From Octopus sinensis (Eukaryota): a stretch of 64,000 nt of DNA. The DNA is taken from NCBI RefSeq assembly GCF_006345805.1, contig NC_043013.1:54002001-54066000 (forward strand), written 5' to 3'. Within the stretch, counting starts at the first letter, position 1. Every line of letters begins with the position of its first letter. The notes under the pieces were generated by a model, which was given only the letters and a program-made list of their open reading frames with translations, had not been told where the DNA came from and did no database searches. The translations under genes were made by a program, and so were the position numbers. Below, piece by piece: positions 5,482 through 61,290 of this stretch.

Positions 5482-5708
5482 TTAATCCTTTAGCATTGAA
5501 TCTGGTCACATCTAGCCCAGATATTCTACCTATTTTCAGTTCAAATTAGCCAGATCAGGCCTCTCACACCTGCCCTACAATATTATTCTAAAAATAAACA
5601 ATGACATCGTTGTAATCTTGAAGCTTTGAGATAATGCAGGATTAATTCAAAATAATGTGAATGAATGAGCATTGCATTTTACAAAAGAATCGGAATACAA
5701 AAGGGTTA
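5482..5708. mobile_element. TTAA-flanked (piggyBac-like) MITE; related copy at about 23397-23617
   Basis: Termini ttaatcctttagcatt...aaagggtta. The internal sequence (gatattctacct, ctctcacacct, gattaattcaaaa) is shared with the 23.4-kb copy. Confidence 0.6.
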
Positions 5709-27159: not shown

Positions 27160-28016
27160 ATATTCTTTGCCCTAGATGTTAGGAAGACACTTGGCAAGAA
27201 ATGGAAACAAAATTGAAGAAGAAACTCATAATAATAAAGATGGTTCCTAACTCAGTTGTAAAACTAACGAGTGGGGTTAATCAATTAGATTGATCCCCAG
27301 TACTTAACTGGTACTTTATTTTATTGACTCTGAGGATCAATGGCAATGTTGACCACAACAGGACTTGAAAATAGACCATGAAGAGCTAGAGTGAATACTA
27401 CCAAAGCACACCCTTCATCTTTCACCCCACCCTCTAGCAGTGTGGTCATTATAATTGAATAACATCTGCCCCTTGAAATTGTTGACATTGTGCTGACATC
27501 AAAAGTCATTACGTAAAGCTCAGCACAAATTGTTGATGGTCTTTGTACTGTCCCCCTCATCTATGCCCCTTGTGGCTAATAAAAGAAATTATTATTATTC
27601 TCTACTATTTAATATGGCAAGCTTGCAGAATTTTTAGTGAGCTAGGCAAAATGCTGAGCAGTATTTCTTGCACCTTCTTTTTCTAAGTTCAAATTCTGCT
27701 GAAGTCAATAGATTTTAATAATAGTTGAGTGCTTGGGGTTGATGTAATCAACTTACCCCATTACCCCCAAATTGCTGGCCCTGTGCCAATATTTGAAACT
27801 ATTATTATTATTCTATATGTTGTGAATATGCTACAAATATTGTCTGTTGAAGCTGAACTTAGATGAAAGGTAACCAACATTAATATGATTTGAGCATTAA
27901 TATCTGACCCTAAGTTATCAAACTCAACTCAAATTACAGGCTAATTAACACGAAAACTGATGCAAGTGAAAACAAAGGACAAACGAAGTAAGAATAAAAA
28001 TAGTTGTAATACTTAC

Positions 28017-28232
28017 ATGAATTATTGGGATTATTTTCTTTTGTTGTGATCTTCGTTTGTGTGTTAGTAACTGTTGGTGGGCCACAGCCAATTAGGATAT
28101 TATCACGATAGATTGGCTCATAGGAAGTTAGACACTGACACACATTTACATCAGAACACTTTGAGTCATTGCCAGGACAAGGCGGATCACAGTTAAGCGT
28201 GTCACCAGGATAAGTGGTTTCATCACAAGCAC
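28017..28232 (-). CDS. THSD7: THSD7-like exon, juxtamembrane Cys-rich module (phase 1-1)
   Basis: aaaaacag|GT...TCA T|gtaagt. Translates GACDETTYPGDTLNCDPPCPGNDSKCSDVNVCQCLTSYEPIY...TTKENNPNNS, with CxPPC...C...CxC spacing as in the THSD7A C-terminal region. Confidence 0.9.
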
Positions 28233-28275
28233 CTGTTTTTGGTAGAAAAGAAGAAAAAATAGATTGTTTTATAAC

Positions 28276-28545
28276 CAGTGGTGAACTGGCCAGGTTTCCA
28301 GCTTGCCCAATGGAAAGTGGGATCCTGTGCCATTAGAATCCATATATGGGGGCCCATGTTAGTATCTAAGGGACACATCCCCTCAAATTTGAGAATTTTT
28401 TATTCACTCCTGGAAGAATACATTAATTATTTCAGCCTGGCCGTGTTTGTAGACAGATGAAAAGAATACTTTTAACAAAAAAATAAAACTTAAATGATAG
28501 CATTGTAGTTGCTAGTGGGCCCCCTTAGTCTCCTGGCAACCACTG
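28276..28545. mobile_element. Old hAT-like MITE
   Basis: Termini CAGTGG/CCACTG, flanks tttataac and gctataac (6/8 TSD match) and internal GGGCCC motifs. Confidence 0.55.
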
Positions 28546-29818
28546 GCTATAACCATGAAATAAAGTGTATAAGTCTTACATGCTTTCAACATCACTTACC
28601 TTTCTCAAATTTTACAAAACTATTCACTACAATGAAGACTATTATGTCTTACTTCATTTTTGTTTCTCGTTTGCGTGATTCTTTGTGAATTTGTGTGTTG
28701 AAGCAAATTTTGTTATCTCTTGGGAGAAGCATATGGTCTTAATACCTTACCTAACACACTCACCAGTTTGATTTCCACTCATTATATATATTTTTTCTTC
28801 CAAAATTTTCATTGCTTTTGCAACCTTGTCAATGGATGTTGTAAGGAAATCTTTACATTTTCTTCATTAATGATTTGAAGCAAAATGTAAAGGAATCCAA
28901 TAATTAACTATAATATGAATAAATATTCTTTTTTTTTTACATTTCTTAAAATTTTCTCTTCTCTTGCTGTTGTTGTTGCTACTGTTTAACCTTAAGTAAA
29001 CTCTGATTGAGCAGACGAACCGGAGCAAAAGCATTTCAACCGTAACCACTCCATGTTTTAGAGATTTCTGACTCAATTTTTGGTATTTCTACAACCCTGC
29101 TCTTCTTAAGGTGATGTCAGAGTGATTTGATGAAAATGTGATTGCTATTTCTAGCAAATTGATTGAACTTGTTTGATATTTGATCGAGCTTACAGTCCCA
29201 TAGGAAGTAGGATGTGATCAAGGCTTTGGGTGGGAGCCACTAGTACCAGAATCATTTGAAGAATTAGAGAGAGTAGGGATGGCATGCAGGGCTAATTCAT
29301 TGAGAAATGGTAGGAAACTTTTTTAGGAACCATGAATTTTTCTGAAATCCTATATTCAAATGATCAAATGACTACTTCAAATATTCACTTATTAGTGATA
29401 TAGTCCATCCTACGTATGAAAAGACAGTGGCACTTTTGGAGTCTACAAATCATTCTCGCACCAACTATGTACACTTTTATATAACCACAGGTGAAAAGAA
29501 GAAAATTACAGTAATTTGATAAAAAAAAAAGAAAGAAAATGCCATTTGATCATAAAAATTACTCATGGCTTTTAAATTATTGGTTAGATTTAGCTAATAA
29601 CTTGGGAATCCTGTTTTGTGTCCAAAATATACTCCAGTGCTAGGTTCCATTAAAACTGGTGAAGTGATGATTATATTCCAATTTTATTGAGTGGTCTGTT
29701 ATGGAATTACCATTCTTCAGAATGGTAAGTCCTTCTCTTGAAGATAAAACAAAATTGCTGCATCTAACCCAAAACATGTAGAAAAAATAAAAAATAAAAT
29801 AAAAATACTGAGTCCCAC

Positions 29819-30025
29819 CTGTAACATTTAGAGAATCAGATCTTTCACACCATACATGTCTTTTTTCTTTATCCCATTTACTATATTTCCACCGGAAAGT
29901 AAAACAATTCTTTGCATGGCATGGGCGACTCTCGTAAAGTTTTGTAGGACAGAGTGTGGATCTTGCAGCAGGATAAGCCAGAATTGCTCGCGATCGACTC
30001 TGGATTCCTCGCTCATGATCTGCAA
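29819..30025 (-). CDS. THSD7: THSD7-like exon (phase 1-1; alternative in-frame acceptor would start it at 30019)
   Basis: tttcag|TTGCAG|AT...ACA G|gtggga. Translates (VA)DHERGIQSRSRAILAYP...CFTFRWKYSKWDKEKRHVWCERSDSLNVTG; the last part resembles the THSD7 'VWCxRSDGxNVTG' segment as I recall it. Confidence 0.92.
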
Positions 30026-30579
30026 CTGAAACATAAACGATGACATTAATGTTGATCAAAATATATCGCATGCTTTGGGAATAATCCATATGAACTGTTC
30101 TTTAAACATTTGAAGGTAAAAAGCACTCTTTAGCTTTGCAATATGCTCTTTCTCATCAAGAAACAAAATGTTTTAATTTATAGTTTATCATTTACTTGCT
30201 AGAACAGGTAATACTTCCATCTCAGAAGGTAATTAAGAAACTTTCAGTTATGTACGATAGTTGAAGAAATTTTTATATAAATACTTGTAAATACACTCAG
30301 CATGTTTTACCTTTCACTTGTTTCAGCCATTAAACTGTGGCTGTGCTGGGGCATCATCCTGAAGAATTTTAGTTCAACAAATCAACCCCAGTACTTTATA
30401 TTTTTTTGAAAGACTGCTTCTTATTCTGTCGATCTCATTTACCAACGCACTTAGTGATGGCATAAACACTCCAGCACTGGTTGTCAATCGGTGGTGAGGG
30501 ACAAAAACAGGTACAAAGTCACAGACACATGAGACAGGCTTCTCTTAGCTTCCTTCTACCAAATCCACTCACAAGGCTT

Positions 30580-34079: not shown

Positions 34080-35543
34080 TCATATATGATGTGATGTGTA
34101 AAGTCGTGTGGTGTAGTGAGGAGAAGAGGGGGGAGAAGGGGAGGGGAAGAGGAGGGGGAGGAGAGGAGGGGGGAGAGAGAGGAGGGGGAGAAGGAAGGGG
34201 AGGAGGAGGGGGAGGAAGGAGGAAAGAGGGAGAGGGGGAGAGAGAAGGGGAGTGAGGGAGCAGAGGGAAGGGGAAGAGGGAAGGAGGGAGGGAGAAAGAG
34301 GGAAGAAGGGAAGGGGAGTAGGGGTGAAAGGATGAAGGACTGAAGAAGTAGGGGTCGGGGGGAAAGGATAGGTGAGGAGGGGGGAGAGGGGGTTAGATGA
34401 GGAGGGGGGAGAGTTGAGACCAAATGGCGTATAAGAGCGAAGAGAGAAGATTAATTCCTGTTCACTGCGCAAACGGGAATCCGGATGGCCTCTGTGTAAG
34501 GACAAACCGAACACAGATAGGTGTTGCAAGGAGTGACCGGTGGAGCGGAAATGGTGTGAGACCGGTGTGTCGTTCGCAAGGTGGATGTCACGAAGGTGTT
34601 CCACGAACCGGTCAGCCAAGCAGCGTCCCGTTTGTCCGATGTACAAGGAATTGCAGAGAGAGCAAGAGACGCAATAGATAATATTGCTGGAGGTGCAGGT
34701 GAAGGAGTGGATGATGGGATAGGGTCGATGGTGGGTGCTAGTGAGGCGGGTGGTGTTAGAGAGGTAAGGGCAAGTGCGGCAACGTGGGCGGGAGCAGGGG
34801 AACGAGCCGGGTTGGGAGGTAGTGTCAGGGAAGGAGCTATGGACCAAAAGGTCTCGAAGGTTGTGGGCTCGTTTGAAAGAGGGGAGGGGTCGGTTAGGGA
34901 AGAGGTGTGAAGTGGACGGGTCGGATTGGAGATGACGGAAAGCTCGAAGAATGGTGCGTTGGAGACGTAGGGTCGTGGGGTGGTAAGTGAGGGGAAACGG
35001 GAGGCGGGAGACTACAGGGCGGGTTCGGGGAGAGAGAGCAGATACACGGTCCACGGACCGTGCTCTGGCAAGGGCGGTGTGGATAGTGGTGAGGGGGTAT
35101 CCACGTAGGGTGAAGTGGTGAGCCATTCGTTGAGACTGAGTCTCAAAGTCATGGTCGTCACTACAGAGCCTACGTAGACGGAGGAATTGGGAATAGGGGA
35201 TGGAAAGCTTGGTGTGTTCTGGGTGGGAGGAAGAGAAGTTGAGGTATGAGTGTGAGTCTGTGTGTTTGTAGTGAATGGAGGTGGTAAGAGTGGAGTGAAG
35301 AATGCTAACCGAAATGTCGAGGAAGGAGACAGAGGTGTTGGAGATAGTGGAAGTGAAGTGGAGGGCTGGATGGAAAGATTGGACGAAAGAGAGGAAGGAA
35401 TCTAGATGTTCACGGGAGAGTGAGGTGGCACCGATAATGTCGTCAATGTAACGACCATATAGTTCAGGAGTGGGACCAGTGAAATTAGAGAATATTTGGG
35501 CCTCAACATAGCCAACGAACAGGTTCGCATAGTTGGGGCCCAT
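34080..35543 (-). CDS. Penelope-like RT (C-terminal half), thumb, Cys linker and GIY-YIG endonuclease; N-terminally truncated
   Basis: Motifs MGPNYANLF (RT motif B), YGRYIDDI (motif C), FLDISV, YKHTDSHSYL, SIPYSQFLRLRRLCS, CSRPRCRTC, IIYCVSC..C..LYIGQTGR..RFVEH and GLN. The frame is uninterrupted. Confidence 0.93.
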   Translation of the reverse strand: MGPNYANLFVGYVEAQIFSNFTGPTPELYGRYIDDIIGATSLSREHLDSFLSFVQSFHPALHFTSTISNTSVSFLDISVSILHSTLTTSIHYKHTDSHSYLNFSSSHPEHTKLSIPYSQFLRLRRLCSDDHDFETQSQRMAHHFTLRGYPLTTIHTALARARSVDRVSALSPRTRPVVSRLPFPLTYHPTTLRLQRTILRAFRHLQSDPSTSHLFPNRPLPSFKRAHNLRDLLVHSSFPDTTSQPGSFPCSRPRCRTCPYLSNTTRLTSTHHRPYPIIHSFTCTSSNIIYCVSCSLCNSLYIGQTGRCLADRFVEHLRDIHLANDTPVSHHFRSTGHSLQHLSVFGLSLHRGHPDSRLRSEQELIFSLRSYTPFGLNSPPSSSNPLSPLLTYPFPPTPTSSVLHPFTPTPLPFFPLSPSLLPSSPSLCSLTPLLSPPLPLSSFLPLLLPFLLPLLSLPPPLLPLLFPSPSPPSSPHYTTRLYTSHHI

Positions 35544-35777
35544 TCGCGTTGTATGTATATATATATATAATATGTATGTATATATATATATATTTATAAT
35601 GGTATGTATATAGCATATATGTGGTGTGTGTGATATGTATATATGTATGTATAATATATATATCCATATAGTATCATATATAGTAGTATAATATATGTAT
35701 AATATATATGTAATATATATGTATATGTATATATATATGGCATACGTATATATAATTTATATATGTATATATATACA

Positions 35778-38706: not shown

Positions 38707-39572
38707 CTTAAATGAAGAAAAACAACACACTTTAGCGATATGATAGGAAAAATAAAACTGAAATGAGAGATATTTTGAGGAAATTTTCCTATTTTAATGT
38801 ATAATGGAAATTTAATAACCAAATTTGTTTCAATCATTTGTATAAATTTTTAAATCTGAAGAGATATTTAATGAAAGTATAACCTTAAGTAATTAATACA
38901 TTGTTATGTCTTTCAACTCAAGTAATTTCCTTTTGTCTTCAATTAACTCTTTATAATAAAGAATTTGTAGGCAAAGATGTGTAAAAGTAATGAAAAAATG
39001 ATTGAGAAAAATAGTATGTGAATTTAGTAATTTTCTTATAAGAATGAAACATAAACTCCAGTAACATTACTTTATAGCTGTAATTCTAATATTTTAAGGT
39101 ATTTAGCTGTCTGTTGTCAGAATTTAATGATTTCTAATGAAGATATATTATTTTGTGAAGTAGTATAGCTAATTTTAAAATAGACAGTAAACATGGCTGC
39201 AACACTAGAATCAGGCTGTTTTGCTTATTTTATTTGCATACATTTCTATTGTGAACTTAAATCCTACTGGGATTTGGTTATATATATTTCATTTCCCTGG
39301 TATTGATAAAATAAGTATTAGTATTATATTGCAATATATTCAATAAAAGTTAGTCTTTTGCTCTAGGAGATATTTAATAATATAATTCAGTGAGAAATTG
39401 GCTCATAATGATAATAAAATTGAGATAAAGAGATAAAGGATTGAAAAGTTGCTTGAATACAAGATAAAAATAAAATTTGATAAGACATAATACAGAACTG
39501 TCCATTTTGAAAGTCAAAATTCAGTGTTGTAAAAAGAAGGCAAAAAACTGTCTGTCTAATAAAGGTTTTTAC

Positions 39573-39718
39573 CTCAGTAAAGCATTCGGTCCAATTTGTA
39601 ACATCCCATCTAAAACAACCACGTAATACACAGGGCTTCCTTTGAGTAAGCTGACTGGAACATGGCCTGCCATACCCAACTGCTTTCTTTAGAACATACC
39701 TTTGTCGCTGTGATGTAC
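39573..39718 (-). CDS. THSD7: THSD7-like exon (phase 1-0)
   Basis: atgttcag|GT...GAG|gtaaaa. Translates (G)TSQRQRYVLKKAVGYGRPCSSQLTQRKPCVLRGCFRWDVTNWTECFTE, completing the TSP1 repeat begun in the 54.2-kb exon. Confidence 0.93.
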
Positions 39719-40202
39719 CTGAACATATTAACAAATGAAAGAATGTGTGTAACAGAGATTTCTTTGTATAGTTAAAAATATTATTGCACTTGATAAATAA
39801 AATGTTAGAAAAAGCAATTAATACAAGAAAGTAGGTAAAATTTTGTAAACCAAACCAATATAGTCAAAACCTGTTAGCAGATTGTTATCTCACATAATCA
39901 TCCACCCTTGATTTAGATTCTAGTGTGTTTACAATGAAAAGCTTGCTAGATTATCTGTTTCTTCATTTTACCTGTTTTTCTATGCTATCATTGGTTGGAT
40001 GTGTACTAATTTGAGGCAGTTGGTTTTACAATTTGATGCTCTTCCTACTGCCAGCCTTTTCTTGTTTTTACAAGAGATTTTTATATTCCTTTGAGAGTGC
40101 AGAAGCTACAGGATGTAATGATCATCAGGGATATAAATATAGCAGCACTTTTTTTACATTCACACTATCTCACCTGAGAAGTGGACATGACGACTTGCAT
40201 GC

Positions 40203-42014: not shown

Positions 42015-45000
42015 ATCACAATCAAGGAACGGCCATAATAGGTCATTCACCCACTAGAAATAACAGCCAAACGCTTCAACCGCAAAATAACATCAATTCC
42101 GTAAACCAGGAGAAGATTACAAAAACATTTACCCTGTAATTTCTTATACGATGCACCGTTTCATCTACTGTTTAATTTCTTATACGATGCACCGTTTCAT
42201 CTACTGTTTAATTTTTTCCCACTAGGCCGCTGGTGGCAAAAGAATTCTACAAAATTTTTTTGCCACCCTATATTGATTAATTATGAATTTTCTGGTTAAT
42301 TCCGTAATGGAATCGGCGGCTTATATTTATTTGCTGCCGATAAATTTGGCGCGAGTGCGATGATTTGAAAATTTTAGGTCAGATATGCCGAGGCAGGACG
42401 GGAATGCCTCGTGAAAAATATCTGTTCGACTTGGCTATTTCTTACTGATGAATCTAAGGGCCTATGGTAGATTGGCTTGATTTAATTTAATCAGGTAGTT
42501 TACCATTAAACAGTAGATGAAACGGTGCATCGTATAAGAAATTACAGGGTAAATGTTTTTTAATTTTCTCCTGGTTTACGGAATTGATGTTATTTTGCGG
42601 TTGAAGCGTTTGGCTGTTATTTCTAGTGGGTGAATGGCCTATTATGGCCGTTCCTTGATTGTGATGTTGAACTTAAAAATGGTATATGACTATTTAATTT
42701 TTTCCCACTAGGCCGCTGGTGGCAAAAGAATTCTACAAAATTTTTTTGCCACCCTATATTGATTATTATGAATTTTCTGGTTAATTCCGTAATGGAATCA
42801 GCGGCTTATATTTATTTGCTGCCGATAAATTTGGCGCGAGTGCGATGATTTGTAAATTTTAGGTCAGTATTGCCGAGGCAGGGACGGGAATGCCTCGTGA
42901 AAAATATCTGTTCCGAATTGGCTATTTCTTACTGATGAATCTAAGGCCTATGGTAGATTGGCTTGATTTAATTTAATCAGGTAGTTTACCATTAAACAGT
43001 AGATGAAACGGTGCATCGTATAAGAAATTACAGGGTAAATGTTTTTTAATTTTCTCCTGGTTTACGGAATTGATGTTATTTTGCGTTGAAGCGTTTGGCT
43101 GTTATTTCTAGTGGGTGAATGGCCTATTATGGCCGTCCTTGATTGTGATGTTGAACTAAAAATGGTATATGACTATTTAATTTTTTCCCACTAGGCCGCT
43201 GGTGGCAAAAGAATTCTACAAAATTTTTTTGCCACCCTATATTGATTAATTATGAATTTTCTGGTTAATTCCGTAATGGAATCAGCGGCTTATATTTATT
43301 TGCTGCCGATAAATTTGGCGCGAGTGCGATGATTTGTAAATTTTAGGTCAGATATTGCCGAGGCAGGGACGGGAATGCCTCGTGAAAAATATCTGTTCCG
43401 ACTTGGCTATTTCTTACTGATGAATCAAGGGCCTATGGTAGATTGGCTTGATTAATTTAATCAGGTTAGTTACCATTAAACAGTAGATGAAACGGTGCAT
43501 CGTATAAGAAATTACAGGGTAATGTTTTTTAATTTTCTCCTGTTTACGGAATTGATGTTATTTTGCGGTTGAAGCGTTTGGCTGTTATTTCTAGTGGTGA
43601 ATGGCCTATTATGGCCGTTCCTTGATTGTGATGTTGAACTTAAAAATGGTATATGACTATTTAATTTTTTCCCACTAGGCCGCTGGTGGCAAAAGAATTC
43701 TACAAAATTTTTTTGCCACCCTATATTGATTAATTATGAATTTTCTGGTTAATTCCGTAATGGAATCAGCGGCTTATATTTATTTGCTGCCGATAAATTT
43801 GGCGCGAGTGCGATGATTTGTAAATTTTAGGTCAGATATTGCCGAGGCAGGGACGGGAATGCCTCGTGAAAAATATCTGTTCCGAATTGGCTATTTCTTA
43901 CTGATGAATCTAAGGGCCTATGGTAGATTGGCTTGATTTAATTTAATCAGGTTAGTTTACCATTAAACAGTAGATGAAACGGTGCATCGTATAAGAAATT
44001 ACAGGGTAAATGTTTTTTAATTTTCTCCTGGTTTACGGAATTGATGTTATTTTGCGGTTGAAGCGTTTGGCTGTTATTTCTAGTGGGTGAATGGCCTATT
44101 ATGGCCGTTCCTTGATTGTGATGTTGAACTTAAAAATGGTATATGACTATTTAATTTTTTCCCACTAGCCGCTGGTGGCAAAAGAATTCTACAAAATTTT
44201 TTTGCCACCCTATATTGATTAATTATGAATTTTCTGGTTAATTCCGTAATGGAATCAGCGGCTTATATTTATTTGCTGCCGATAATTTGGCGCGAGTGCG
44301 ATGATTTGTAAATTTTAGGTCAGATATTGCCGAGGCAGGGACGGGAATGCCTCGTGAAAAATATCTGTTCCGAATTGGCTATTTCTTACTGATGAATCTA
44401 AGGGCCTATGTAGATTGGCTTGATTTAATTTAATCAGGTTAGTTTACCATTAAACAGTAGATGAAACGGTGCATCGTATAAGAAATTACAGGGTAAATGT
44501 TTTTTAATTTTCTCCTGGTTTACGGAATTGATGTTATTTTGCGGTTGAAGCGTTTGGCTGTTATTTCTAGTGGGTGAATGGCCTATTATGGCCGTTCCTT
44601 GATTGTGATGTTGAACTTAAAAATGGTATATGACTATTTAATTTTTTCCCACTAGGCCGCTGGTGGCAAAAGAATTCTACAAAATTTTTTTGCCACCCTA
44701 TATTGATTAATTATGAATTTTCTGGTTAATTCCGTAATGGAATCAGCGGCTTATATTTATTTGCTGCCGATAAATTTGGCGCGAGTGCGATGATTTGTAA
44801 ATTTTAGGTCAGATATTGCCGAGGCAGGGACGGGAATGCCTCGTGAAAAATATCTGTTCCGAATTGGCTATTTCTTACTGATGAATCTAAGGGCCTATGG
44901 TATTGGCTTGATTTAATTTAATCAGGTTAGTTTACCATTAAACAGTAGATGAAACGGTGCATCGTATAAGAAATTACAGGGTAAATGTTTTTTAATTTTC

Positions 45001-45194
45001 TCCTGGTTTACGGAATTGATGTTATTTTGCGGTTGAAGCGTTTGGCTGTTATTTCTAGTGGGTGAATGGCCTATTATGGCCGTTCCTTGATTGTGATGTT
45101 GAACTTAAAAATGGTATATGACTATTTAATTTTTTCCCACTAGGCCGCTGGTGGCAAAAGAATTCTACAAAATTTTTTTGGCACCCTATATTGA

Positions 45195-45201
<7 letters not shown>
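42015..45201 (+). mobile_element. Hammerhead-bearing ~490-bp tandem array (retrozyme or Penelope pLTR-like) with an inverted 5' segment, inserted in (TA)n
   Basis: The motif cccACTAG recurs at 42221, 42707, 43190, 43674, 44164, 44651 and 45139 (period 483-490). 42015-42172 is the reverse complement of part of the unit. Both flanks are (TA)n. No ORF is present. Confidence 0.9.
42437..42542 (+). ncRNA. Type I hammerhead ribozyme, copy 1 of 6 (CTGATGA cores at 42445, 42932, 43417, 43901, 44389, 44878)
   Basis: Stem I ATTTCTTA/TAAGAAAT; core CTGATGA; stem II ATCTA...TAGAT enclosing a long hairpin; GAAA; stem III CGG-TGCA-TCG; cleavage triplet GUA with predicted cut after 42534. Confidence 0.9.
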
Positions 45202-45238
<37 letters not shown>

Positions 45239-45639: not shown

Positions 45640-46465
45640 GATTGTCAAAAGATTGACGAGTTTTGTAGCATGCCAACAGATGGCAGCATGTGGTTGCATA
45701 TGCAGTGAGAACTAGCAGTGACCTTGATGGAGCAGTGTGCTGAGTAACATCATGGACAGGAAGTTGGAACAAAGAGCAAATGTGAAATTTTGGGTTAGAC
45801 TTGGGAATTTTGCTACAGAGACATTGAGATGCTTCAGCAAGCTTATGGCAATGAGTTGTATGCAATGTTTTGAGTGGAATGGGTACTTCAAAAGTGGAAG
45901 AACATCTCTGGAAGATGATGAACCATCTCGAAGACTTGCTGCAAGCAGCATCCCTAGAAATGTGGTATTGTGATGAAGACTTCATCCCTCAGGGCCAGAT
46001 CATCGGTCAAGAGTTTTACTGCAATGTTTTTAAATGTTTGAGGGAGGACCTTCGGCAAAAGTGATGGGATCTGTGGAGCAAGAAGAATTGGATTCTTCAT
46101 AAGAACAATACAGTGTCACCGAACTTTCTGAGCTCATGAGTTTCTTGCCAAAACAACATGGCATCAATTCGGCACCTGCCCTATTTGCCATATTTAGCAC
46201 AGGCAGACTTCCATCTCTTTATCAAGATGAAAACACAGCTCAGAAGTCACCATTTTAACACCATTATTGAGATCCAAAGCAAATCATAGAAAGACCTTGA
46301 CTTGCTTTTGGAAAACAATTTCCAGGCTGGATTCCAAAAAAGGCAGGAATGCTGGAACCAGTGTATTACTGTGCAAGGTTACTACTTCAAAGGAGATGAT
46401 GTTAAAAGTTAGGGGAATAAGGTATTTTATTAAACATAAGTAGTCCTGGAATTTTTTGATACTAG
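45640..46465 (+). mobile_element. Decayed, internally deleted mariner (Tc1/mariner) element
   Basis: HTH region MDRKLEQRANVKFWVRLG..ATET...FKSGRTSLEDDE, a degenerate YSPDLAPxD region near 46170-46220 and a TIR remnant at about 46440-46463. Confidence 0.8.
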
Positions 46466-57048: not shown

Positions 57049-57596
57049 CAGTTATACCAAATATGTTATACCAAATATACCTTAGTTATACCAAATATGG
57101 CTAATCAATTCTTCAGTTTGATAAACCCTATATATTTCCAGTTTGATTATGAAAGGATGTATCTCTACCTAAAATGCTTTTGTTTCCACTTTGAGTTTGG
57201 CTGTTATTTAATTACTGAATGTTTTAAAAAAATATCTATTATTCTTTGTGAAGCCCAAAATTTATTCGTTGTCTCAGACTACCTTTTGAGCCAAGTCTGT
57301 TGGAGATCAACCTTCCAGGTATATGATACACCAAACAGATACAAACAAGGCTCTTTTATTTTCATTGTGTAAAAGAAAAAAAAGAAAAAATTAATGATAT
57401 TGTCCTGTTAAAGTTGTTGATAATACAAACATGTCATCATAGCGGAAGTAATTTATTTGAGTATATTTTATATCTAGGTTTGATGAGATATATTTCACAT
57501 GATATAGATTTAGTGGAATCTCATCAACCTGTGGCAACTGAGCTGATAATCATAGACAAAGATAATGATTAATAGTAGCAGAAAGTATTTCCTTAC

Positions 57597-57869
57597 TTCA
57601 TAGCAGTAGTGACTCCTCTGTAATTTTCCATAATAATCAGTACACATAATAAAGCGCTCTCTTTTGCCAAAACCACAGGGTTCTTCTCCATCTTTGACCA
57701 TACAGGATGTCCATTTTGAAACGTTCCAAATAAATTCCCTGCAGTTTTTGCCTTTAATGCAATAAAGTTCTTCTCGGAGAGATGGGCAAGGATAATGGTC
57801 TCGCCTATATTTATCTGGTTCTCGTAAAACTTTTCGTGTTCTCCACTGAGTTTGTTGCCTATTGCAGGG
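57597..57869 (-). CDS. THSD7: THSD7-like exon (phase 0-0, 273 bp)
   Basis: ttttgttttag|CCC...GAA|gtaagg. Translates PCNRQQTQWRTRKVLREP...CPSLREELYC...WNVSKWTSCMVKDGEEPCGFGKRERFIMC...HYCYE, in frame with the neighbouring exons. Confidence 0.92.
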
Positions 57870-60371: not shown

Positions 60372-61290
60372 AAGCAGTATCAAAAGGTTTGTGGACTAGT
60401 TATGTTTAATAAACAATAACGTATTTATCTAAGTCATCTCCTTCAAAGTAGTCACCTTGCGCAGCAATAAACCAATCCCAGCATTCCTACCATGTTTGGA
60501 ATCCAGCCTGAAAGTCATTTTCCCTAAGAATGTCAAAGACCATCTGTGATTCGCTCTGTATCTTGACAATGGTGTTGAAACAGCAACTTTTGAGCAGCAT
60601 TTTCATCTTAGGGAAGAGATGGATGTCCACACGTGCTACATCTGGCAAATAGGGTGGGTATGGAAGCAATACTATGTTGTTTTGGGTGAGAAACTCATGA
60701 GTGAGGAGAGCTCAGTGACAGGGGGCACTGTCATCATGGAGAATCCAATTATTCATGCTCCATAGATCTGGTCACTTTCTCTGAATGTCCTCACTCAAAC
60801 ACTTCAAAACATCATTGATTGACCTCTGTTGATCTTCATGCACAAGCTGAGGAATTTTCTCCACATTTACAGGGTTGGGGGTGGGGGGCGCTTGTGGCAG
60901 GTCTTCCAGATCGCTCATCATCTTTCAAGGATGTTTTCCCACTTTTGAAGCGCCTGTGACACTTGAAACATTGTATATGAATCACTGCCTCATCCCCATA
61001 AGCATGCCAAAGCATGCTCAATGTCTCTGTAGCAGAGTTCCCAAGTTTAATGCAAAATCTCATGCTGGCTCTTTGTTCCAACTTTCTGTCCATGACAAAA
61101 TCACAGACTACAGTATACATGTGACCACAAAACACAAATTTCACAACTTGTGAAGTAAAATACAGCAATTCCACTCAGCACATTGCCCCATAGATGTCAC
61201 TGCTGGCTCTCACTGTGCATACAACCATGTGCTGCCATCTGTTGGCATGTTACAGAACTTGTCCAGGAATATTTTGATACCACCTTTGTA
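60372..61290 (-). mobile_element. Decayed, internally deleted mariner, same family as the 45.6-kb copy
   Basis: Contains EQRASMRFCIKLGNSATET...DDERSGRP and PYPPYLPDVARVDIHLFPKMK, with TIR remnants gtatcaaaa...ggact and gtccaggaatattttgatac. Confidence 0.82.

What the first reader, a model, noticed from the sequence alone, without database searches (positions are those of the whole stretch)
43893..43999. Atypical hammerhead with a long G.U-rich stem II extension that fixes the functional strand
Seen (copy 4): after ATCTA/TAGAT there is a 7x7 internal loop (AGGGCCT/TAAACAG), then a 19-bp helix ATGGTAGATTGGCTTGATT-taattt-AATCAGGTTAGTTTACCAT. All 19 positions pair, five of them as G.U. The G.U pairs form only in the plus-strand RNA, which argues for selection on RNA structure rather than a DNA palindrome. 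An internal TAGAT could also pair with ATCTA and give a catalytically inactive fold, so a conformational switch is possible (inference). Minimal PLE hammerheads usually have very short stems II.
Basis: partly seen in the sequence, partly recalled or inferred. Interest (0 to 1): 0.7.

Follow-up and report, generated by a model that had tools for sequence, protein, structure and literature searches.

The report
Long-armed paired hammerhead in a retrozyme
This is a hammerhead (self-cutting RNA) motif in a repeat with thousands of copies in an animal genome; its long side helix is real and conserved as RNA pairing, but it is likely a stable cap on a docking loop of a ribozyme predicted to cut only in pairs, not the on/off switch first proposed.

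Summary
Observation confirmed: the 7x7 loop, the 19-bp helix and five plus-strand G.U pairs are present. The motif is the type I hammerhead of a ~489-bp non-coding tandem element with over 3,200 pattern matches genome-wide. It inserts into (AT)n with Penelope-type ends, so it is a non-LTR retrozyme.

The helix is under selection for pairing: all 7 internal-branch changes end paired. The wobbles swap with A-U, so G.U itself is not required. The internal-UAGAU switch is not supported: it lies 14 kcal/mol above the MFE and most copies lack it. The likely control is dimerisation through a conserved 12-nt stem III palindrome, and two-copy transcripts fold as a double hammerhead. The internal loop likely docks on a stem I internal loop by 3-5 base pairs. 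Putative RNA contigs show an A-to-G excess, so some wobbles may be fixed edits.

PLE hammerheads are short in stem III, not stem II. The scan has already noted long-armed hammerheads and two-armed ~490-bp retrozymes elsewhere in this genome. Cleavage is untested.

The parts
42015..45202 (.). Whole retrozyme insertion: inverted short arm plus forward tandem arm, inside an (AT)n tract
42203..45202 (+). Forward arm: 6.2 tandem copies of the ~489-bp unit, one hammerhead each; ends at unit position 235 (numbered from the cut site)
42015..42212 (-). Inverted arm: unit positions 1-131 plus a duplicated piece across the cut site; ends at unit position 131
43886..43889 (+). Distal stem I, 5' strand; pairs with 44002-44005 (first pair mismatched in this copy)
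43890..43892 (+). Loop 1, 5' strand GCU; predicted to pair with GGC of the stem II internal loop
43893..43900 (+). Stem I, 5' strand; pairs with 43992-43999; four compensatory columns across subfamilies
43901..43907 (+). Catalytic core CUGAUGA
43908..43912 (+). Proximal stem II, 5' strand; pairs with 43971-43975; position 10.1-11.1 is A-U here and A.C in 55 sampled copies
43913..43919 (+). Internal loop (loop 2), 5' strand; conserved GGC(C) at 43915-43918
43920..43963 (+). 19-bp extension helix with 6-nt apical loop and five G.U pairs
43924..43928 (+). Internal TAGAT; lineage-specific, made by the A-to-T change that repairs an A.A mismatch
43964..43970 (+). Internal loop, 3' strand; variable
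43976..43979 (+). Core GAAA (G12-A15.1)
43979..43990 (+). Stem III: 12-nt self-complementary palindrome; predicted inter-copy helix
43989..43991 (+). GUA triplet; predicted cut after 43991
   Evidence: hammerhead consensus applied to the sequence; cleavage not tested

Best explanation
The motif is the type I hammerhead of a ~489-nt non-coding tandem element, and its 19-bp helix is a conserved plus-strand RNA helix that likely serves as a stable cap closing loop 2, while cutting is predicted to depend on two copies pairing through stem III. In detail: a multimeric transcript would fold as a double hammerhead and cut after GUA to unit length (predicted). The 7x7 loop likely pairs its GGC(C) with GCU in a stem I internal loop, the usual stem I-II docking made as a short pseudoknot (inferred). 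The released monomer or circle is predicted inactive because stem III cannot form and the core pairs with its 3' strand. A Penelope-type RT/GIY-YIG enzyme likely copies one RNA from two fixed sites (about unit positions 131 and 235) into both strands of an (AT)n target, giving two-armed tandem arrays (inferred from insertion ends). The wobbles are tolerated states of A-U or G-C pairs, possibly fed by A-to-I editing.
For: Family size: 3,270 and 3,413 pattern matches, control 0; no frame over 60 codons. Stems I, II and III covary across subfamilies: 8 pairs with double changes in 16 sequences, slid controls at most 2. Extension: 7 of 7 internal-branch changes end paired; single-copy changes break 7 of 8. 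Dimer: two copies cofold as a double hammerhead, -81.1 versus -67.6 kcal/mol. A natural 630-nt two-copy stretch (L010) has inter-copy stem III at P 0.92-1.0, while the active monomer has P 0.007 and stem III in the circle P<=0.02. The four common stem III variants (138, 89, 17 and 12 copies) are all 12/12 self-complementary, including a double change in what is loop in the monomer. Loop-loop pairing: 3 fixed pairs hold in 16 of 16 sequences; some run of >=4 bp between the two segments in 257 of 265 copies; loop 2 is open in the nested fold. Mobility: 145 of 161 3' ends fall at two sites, 142 of those 145 run into AT-rich DNA, and 40 of 41 classifiable two-armed insertions use one site per arm. 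Private variants are shared by both arms in 10 of 12 cases. This matches PLE internal initiation at two sites and AT-rich nicking (PMC11167929).
Against: No cleavage, circle or raw-read evidence: all runs were contigs, and RNA status is a guess. Only one extension position has a two-sided change; 13 of 19 pairs never vary in A1. The lower change rate in the helix (7 events on 38 sites versus 0.32 per site elsewhere) was not tested statistically and is modest. Subfamilies differ by only 4-16%. The loop-loop pairs have no double change in a fixed register and no chance control, and G43889 is claimed by both distal stem I and the pseudoknot. 5' ends at the cut site are not clearly enriched: 13 of 167 at positions <=8, about 6 of them stitching artefacts, 2.7 expected. 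No autonomous partner with homologous ends was found in 37 PLE-containing stretches. Energies omit pseudoknots and proteins.
Confidence: 0.66

Rival explanations
1. The long helix has its own job in the element's life cycle, unrelated to catalysis, for example as a binding handle for the borrowed Penelope RT or as part of the compact fold that protects the circle.
For: The apical half and the 6-nt loop are nearly invariant in sequence across all 8 subfamilies. It is the longest helix of the predicted circle and forms with P>=0.93 whether or not the ribozyme folds. Unrelated hammerhead repeats in this genome also carry 39-61-nt stem II inserts.
Against: The two inferred RT start sites lie at unit positions 131 and 235, far from the helix in sequence. 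The other long arms share no sequence with it and fold weakly. In PAc the needed RNA lies near the initiation stem-loop.
Confidence: 0.3
2. The G.U pairs are mostly fixed A-to-I edits: ADAR edits the helix, the RNA is reverse-transcribed, and A-U becomes G.U on the plus strand only. This is compatible with the best explanation; it addresses where the wobbles come from.
For: Five putative RNA runs show 65 A>G versus 31 T>C places, three DNA runs 17 versus 15. A43920 reads G in 11-80% of contig depth in the five putative RNA runs, but is A in 273 of 273 gap-free genomic copies. Array-fixed private variants are A>G in 11 of 45 versus 10 of 227 single-copy variants (p=8e-5). Six helix positions exchange A/G opposite U in two or more copies.
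Against: Runs are contigs from other individuals, RNA status is guessed, and one DNA run has 7% G at 43920. A>G versus T>C among array-fixed variants is 11:7, p=0.15. The internal-branch spectrum is symmetric: G>A 25, A>G 23, T>C 22, C>T 22. The inverted arms would give long dsRNA that is edited regardless of this helix.
Confidence: 0.25
3. One reading: the internal UAGAU captures AUCUA and turns the ribozyme off.
For: The two pentamers are complementary. In nascent-chain folds the pairing reaches P 0.22-0.38 at three prefix lengths (36, 40 and 62 nt) before the helix completes.
Against: It is 14 kcal/mol above the MFE, P about 1e-9, once the helix is made. Seven of 8 subfamilies have AAGA(T/C) there. 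The 25-array subfamily has AUCCG, which changed with the distal CGGAU and not with the internal site. It occurs in 4 of the first 100 listed matches.
Confidence: 0.03
4. The helix is an old inverted duplication (DNA palindrome) decaying neutrally.
For: 13 of 19 pairs never vary in A1 and the family is young. A G+T-rich strand favours wobbles, and 24 of 38 possible transitions keep a pair.
Against: Lineage-defining changes keep pairing in 6 of 6 cases at an expectation of 0.40, and single-copy changes break 7 of 8. The minus strand folds far worse.
Confidence: 0.07

Closest known systems
Metazoan non-LTR retrozymes (Cervera and de la Pena 2020, PMC7229834: passages and section 14 read; Li, Clavereau and Pollet 2026, bioRxiv 10.64898/2026.07.22.740005: parts 1-3 of 5 read)
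   Same: Non-coding low-GC tandem units, each with a type I hammerhead; dispersed dimers to multimers; co-occurs with PLEs; dimer-type stem III as in axolotl.
   Different: The unit of ~489 bp is above the 170-400 nt of the 2020 paper but inside the 51-972 bp of the preprint. There is a 68-nt stem II with an internal loop and a predicted base-paired loop contact. Expression as a circle is not shown here.
Type I hammerheads in pLTRs of Penelope-like elements (Cervera and de la Pena 2014, PMC4209133: passages; Craig et al. 2021, PMC8557442: passages and File S2 table)
   Same: Palindromic stem III, predicted dimer activity, (TA)n targets, inverted 5'-truncated arm, tail at one end.
   Different: Animal rows of File S2 have stem II plus loop of about 11-24 nt, and the longest entry, a spike-moss PLE-X, about 53 nt, against 68 nt here. 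The tail is about 104 nt, not 30-40. No ORF.
Pseudoknot-stabilised hammerheads (Perreault et al. 2011, PMC3088659: passages)
   Same: Watson-Crick pairing joins stems I and II, reported in about 40% of hammerheads.
   Different: Here the predicted contact is between two internal loops, only 3-5 bp, in a dimer-type ribozyme; untested.
PAc Poseidon internal initiation (Frangieh et al. 2024, PMC11167929: parts 1-2 of 4 read)
   Same: Two internal RT start sites, both target strands nicked and extended, AT-rich target.
   Different: PAc is autonomous and its two sites are adjacent; here they are about 104 nt apart in a non-coding multimer.
CChMVd minus-strand hammerhead (PMC3705267: passages)
   Same: A natural hammerhead described as having an unusually long helix II.
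   Different: It belongs to a plant viroid and is unrelated in sequence and context.

Membership tests
Type I hammerhead ribozyme | Core CUGANGA ... GAAA ... NUH | tested here: met
   CUGAUGA 43901-07, GAAA 43976-79, GUA 43989-91
Type I hammerhead ribozyme | Three stems with stem I open, supported by covariation | tested here: met
   double changes in stems I (4), II (2) and III (1)
Type I hammerhead ribozyme | Canonical G10.1-C11.1 pair (recalled; also noted in PMC4209133) | tested here: not met
   A-U in 187, A.C in 55, U.U in 11 of 258 copies; no G10.1 match to a family pattern. Typical rather than defining: U.U is reported in natural ribozymes
Type I hammerhead ribozyme | Stem I-stem II tertiary contact | tested here: inconclusive
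   3 pairs kept in 16 of 16 sequences, one one-sided change, no double change in fixed register
Type I hammerhead ribozyme | Match to an Rfam hammerhead model | tested here: not met
   none at gathering or at E<=10; probably due to the 68-nt insert (inference)
Type I hammerhead ribozyme | Site-specific self-cleavage | not testable with these tools
   no bench data; 5'-end footprint inconclusive
Non-LTR retrozyme | Tandem non-coding units with a hammerhead in consecutive units | tested here: met
   6 consecutive units; longest frame 60 codons
Non-LTR retrozyme | Dispersed, mobile, no LTR or ORF of its own | tested here: met
   98 arrays sampled on many contigs; over 3,200 matches
Non-LTR retrozyme | Expressed as linear and circular monomer RNA | tested here: inconclusive
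   five putative RNA runs cover the unit, but only as contigs; tandem DNA gives the same junction as a circle
PLE-mobilised element | Microsatellite target, inverted 5'-truncated arm, two 3' ends (tail) | tested here: met
PLE-mobilised element | Homology to the pLTR of an autonomous PLE | tested here: inconclusive
   no hit in 37 PLE-containing stretches; these are a small part of 5,029 first-look candidates

The most novel reading that the evidence does not exclude
The long stem II is an ADAR substrate inside a circular, reverse-transcribed ribozyme RNA. A-to-I edits are written back into the germline as G.U pairs, so RNA editing is a mutational source that shapes a natural ribozyme. The helix also caps a loop-loop pseudoknot in a dimer-only hammerhead, a layout not found in my seven paper searches.
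Probability: 0.2. Interest if true: 0.7.

Novelty: new variant of a known kind. Interest (0 to 1): 0.36.

Why it matters
It gives a well-sampled natural hammerhead with a 68-nt stem II that Rfam misses, so hammerhead censuses undercount such elements. It offers clean predictions: dimer-only cleavage, a 3-5-bp loop-loop contact and a dispensable cap. The insertion ends (one RNA, two fixed start sites, one per strand) make the proposed PLE-driven copying of retrozyme RNA testable. The element class itself is known, and the switch that made the finding look special is not supported.

Tried and rejected
Rfam gave no hammerhead hit. The covariance model R1 could not be run on the whole genome; in the window it found the six copies, the inverted piece, minus-strand echoes of the hairpin and one weak unrelated hit. 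The RVT_1 search did not help find a partner and was not followed up. GIY-YIG loci gave PLE ORFs but no similarity to the unit. A pattern for a G10.1 subfamily found 0 matches, although one DNA run shows G there at 30% of contig depth. So A-to-I restoration of a G10.1-C11.1-like pair is unsupported. A cut-site footprint at 5' ends was inconclusive. One copy (L122) with an apparent six-pair pseudoknot was not used because it also has a deletion. Lunse et al. 2017 was not held and is known here only through the review PMC6765202. Also read in passages without bearing on the verdict: PMC13725137 ('long' helix II means 6-8 bp) and PMC10085705. Paper searches; none showed an animal retrozyme with such an arm. 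Supplements of PMC4209133 and PMC7229834 were not opened, and those of the preprint are closed; they may show long-armed examples. Rows dropped before counts: partial hammerheads; arrays with under 380 aligned positions (87 of 184 kept); single-segment arrays (71 of 87 kept); gapped cells. Stem I rows were distorted by end-trimming and are not used.

Full report
1. Observation. The sequence at 43893-43999 is as described: stem I of 8 bp, core CUGAUGA, AUCUA/UAGAU, a 7x7 loop and a 19-bp helix with G.U at positions 7, 9, 11, 12 and 14. The hairpin is -22.1 kcal/mol on the plus strand and -6.7 on the minus strand. None of 150 shuffles of the unit gave a helix over 16 bp. Five of the six window copies have small deletions in the helix, probably read errors. 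Rfam finds no hammerhead.

2. Context. The motif lies in a ~489-bp unit repeated 6.2 times (42203-45202), preceded by an inverted arm (42015-42212), with (AT)n on both sides. The 2.72-Gb genome holds 3,270 matches to a core pattern and 3,413 to a helix pattern, controls 0. I sampled 277 hammerhead copies in 98 arrays. The sample came from best hits to three queries plus the first places on contig C1, so it is not a random sample. Eight subfamilies of two or more arrays were found; the six larger ones differ by 4-16%. No frame exceeds 60 codons. This fits the non-LTR retrozymes of PMC7229834 (passages; section 14) and of bioRxiv 10.64898/2026.07.22.740005 (parts 1-3 of 5). Earlier AI notes call the genome octopus-like; I did not test that.

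3. Is the helix selected as RNA? Yes, with moderate strength. In 16 representative sequences, stems I, II and III show seven double changes and the extension one (U-A, U.G, C-G at position 9), plus four one-sided changes that keep the pair. On a tree of 71 arrays, seven internal-branch changes fall in the helix. Six start from a pair and stay paired (expectation 0.40 each), and one converts A.A to U-A. Terminal-branch changes keep 3 of 5 and single-copy substitutions 1 of 8. The wobbles are not fixed: subfamilies have three to five, exchanging mostly with A-U, and 5/19 is not above 19/130 elsewhere in the unit (p=0.19). The whole unit is structured on the plus strand (z -7.9; minus -5.9). The helix is therefore the longest of several plus-strand hairpins, and the core already fixes the strand.

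4. The switch. The fold with the internal UAGAU is -19.9 versus -33.8 kcal/mol, P about 1e-9; it appears only in short nascent prefixes. The pentamer was created by the A-to-T change that repaired the mismatch. It is found in 79 of 277 sampled copies and 4 of the first 100 listed matches. In the 25-array subfamily, proximal stem II changed to AUCCG/CGGAU with no matching change inside. I reject it.

5. The likely control. A lone copy is predicted inactive: the core pairs with the 3' strand of stem III, active fold P 0.007, and stem III is P<=0.02 in the circle. Two copies cofold as a double hammerhead, -81.1 versus -67.6, and a natural two-copy stretch does so with P 0.92-1.0. The four common stem III variants are all fully self-complementary, and one has a double change in the centre that only matters in a dimer. 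This is the known dimer mode (PMC4209133; PMC6765202).

6. The internal loop. The alignment fold shows a distal stem I closing an internal loop 1. Its GCU is complementary to GGC in the stem II loop in 16 of 16 sequences, with U.G to C-G in one subfamily. Common haplotype pairs are GGCU/GGCC, GAGCU/GGCUU, GGCCG/CGGCC and GGCUG/CGGCC; 257 of 265 copies allow some run of four or more pairs, 14 of them in another register. Loop 2 is open in the nested fold. Pseudoknots between stems I and II occur in about 40% of hammerheads (PMC3088659). I infer that the 7x7 loop is loop 2 and that the 19-bp helix closes it. There is no fixed-register double change and no chance control, so this stays a prediction.

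7. Mobility. Of 161 3' ends, 77 lie at unit positions 120-140 and 68 at 225-245; 142 of these 145 run into AT-rich DNA; 40 of 41 classifiable two-armed insertions use one site per arm (p=4e-11). Private variants are fixed in both arms in 10 of 12 cases, as expected from one template. This matches PLE inverted arms and tails (PMC8557442) and the two internal start sites of PAc (PMC11167929). The genome has PLE ORFs with RT and GIY-YIG, but none of 37 stretches resembled the unit. Ends at the cut site are not clearly enriched.

8. Editing. Five putative RNA runs show 65 A>G versus 31 T>C places, three DNA runs 17 versus 15. The places include helix positions 43920, 43925, 43945 and 43954. Array-fixed private variants are A>G in 11 of 45 against 10 of 227 single-copy ones. 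Against: these are contigs of other individuals, the RNA status is guessed, places recur between runs, the strand asymmetry in DNA is not significant (11:7, p=0.15), and the internal-branch spectrum is symmetric. It remains a hint that the wobbles may be fixed edits.

9. How unusual is the arm? It is 68 nt, against about 11-24 nt for animal rows and about 53 nt at most in File S2 of PMC8557442. Seven searches showed no animal retrozyme with such an arm; several supplements were not seen. Within this genome it is not unique: I found unrelated hammerhead repeats with 54-, 61- and 39-nt inserts. Earlier scan notes report long arms and two-armed ~490-bp retrozymes in this genome, and a pseudoknot-braced one in another. 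These notes are not independent support.

10. Verdict. A real, conserved RNA helix in a new variant of a known element. Shown: sequence, family, covariation, insertion anatomy. Predicted: dimer-only cleavage and an inactive monomer. Inferred: loop-loop docking, cap role, PLE copying, editing. Interest 0.36.

Noticed in passing
window 34080-35756 (-): 5'-truncated Penelope-like fragment: RT end (YGRYIDD motif), CxxC linker and GIY-YIG-like motif read by eye; no Pfam hit at 1e-3; near-identical piece in L073.
   Followed up: partly
L163:5300-5560 (-), L177-L191: Second abundant hammerhead repeat with a 54-nt stem II and palindromic stem III, often as inverted pairs.
   Followed up: partly
L167:5860-6165, L192-L206: Third hammerhead repeat of about 290 bp with a 61-nt, weakly folding stem II; head-to-head pairs in (AT)n.
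   Followed up: partly
L161-L169: Young PLE family with intact 780-883-codon RT plus GIY-YIG frames; no canonical hammerhead found in its own ends by my descriptor.
   Followed up: partly
window 43908 and 43975: Core-adjacent pair 10.1-11.1 is A-U, A.C or U.U across the family, never G-C in 258 copies.
   Followed up: partly
window 42137-42214: 36-bp duplication spanning the predicted cut site at the inversion junction, suggesting a template jump.
   Followed up: no
window about 45700-45960 and 60836-61174: Decayed fragments resembling mariner transposase N-termini (recalled resemblance).
   Followed up: no
window 27934-30101, 39387-39863, 57510-57869 (-): Cys/Trp-rich exon-like pieces resembling thrombospondin-type repeats (recalled), so the insertion may lie in an intron of a minus-strand gene.
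   Followed up: no
window 5482-5562 (-): Weak match to model R1 (E 0.07), not examined.
   Followed up: no
L061 and L031: Arrays of two different subfamilies lie within a few hundred bases of each other, suggesting repeated insertion into the same (AT)n tract.
   Followed up: no
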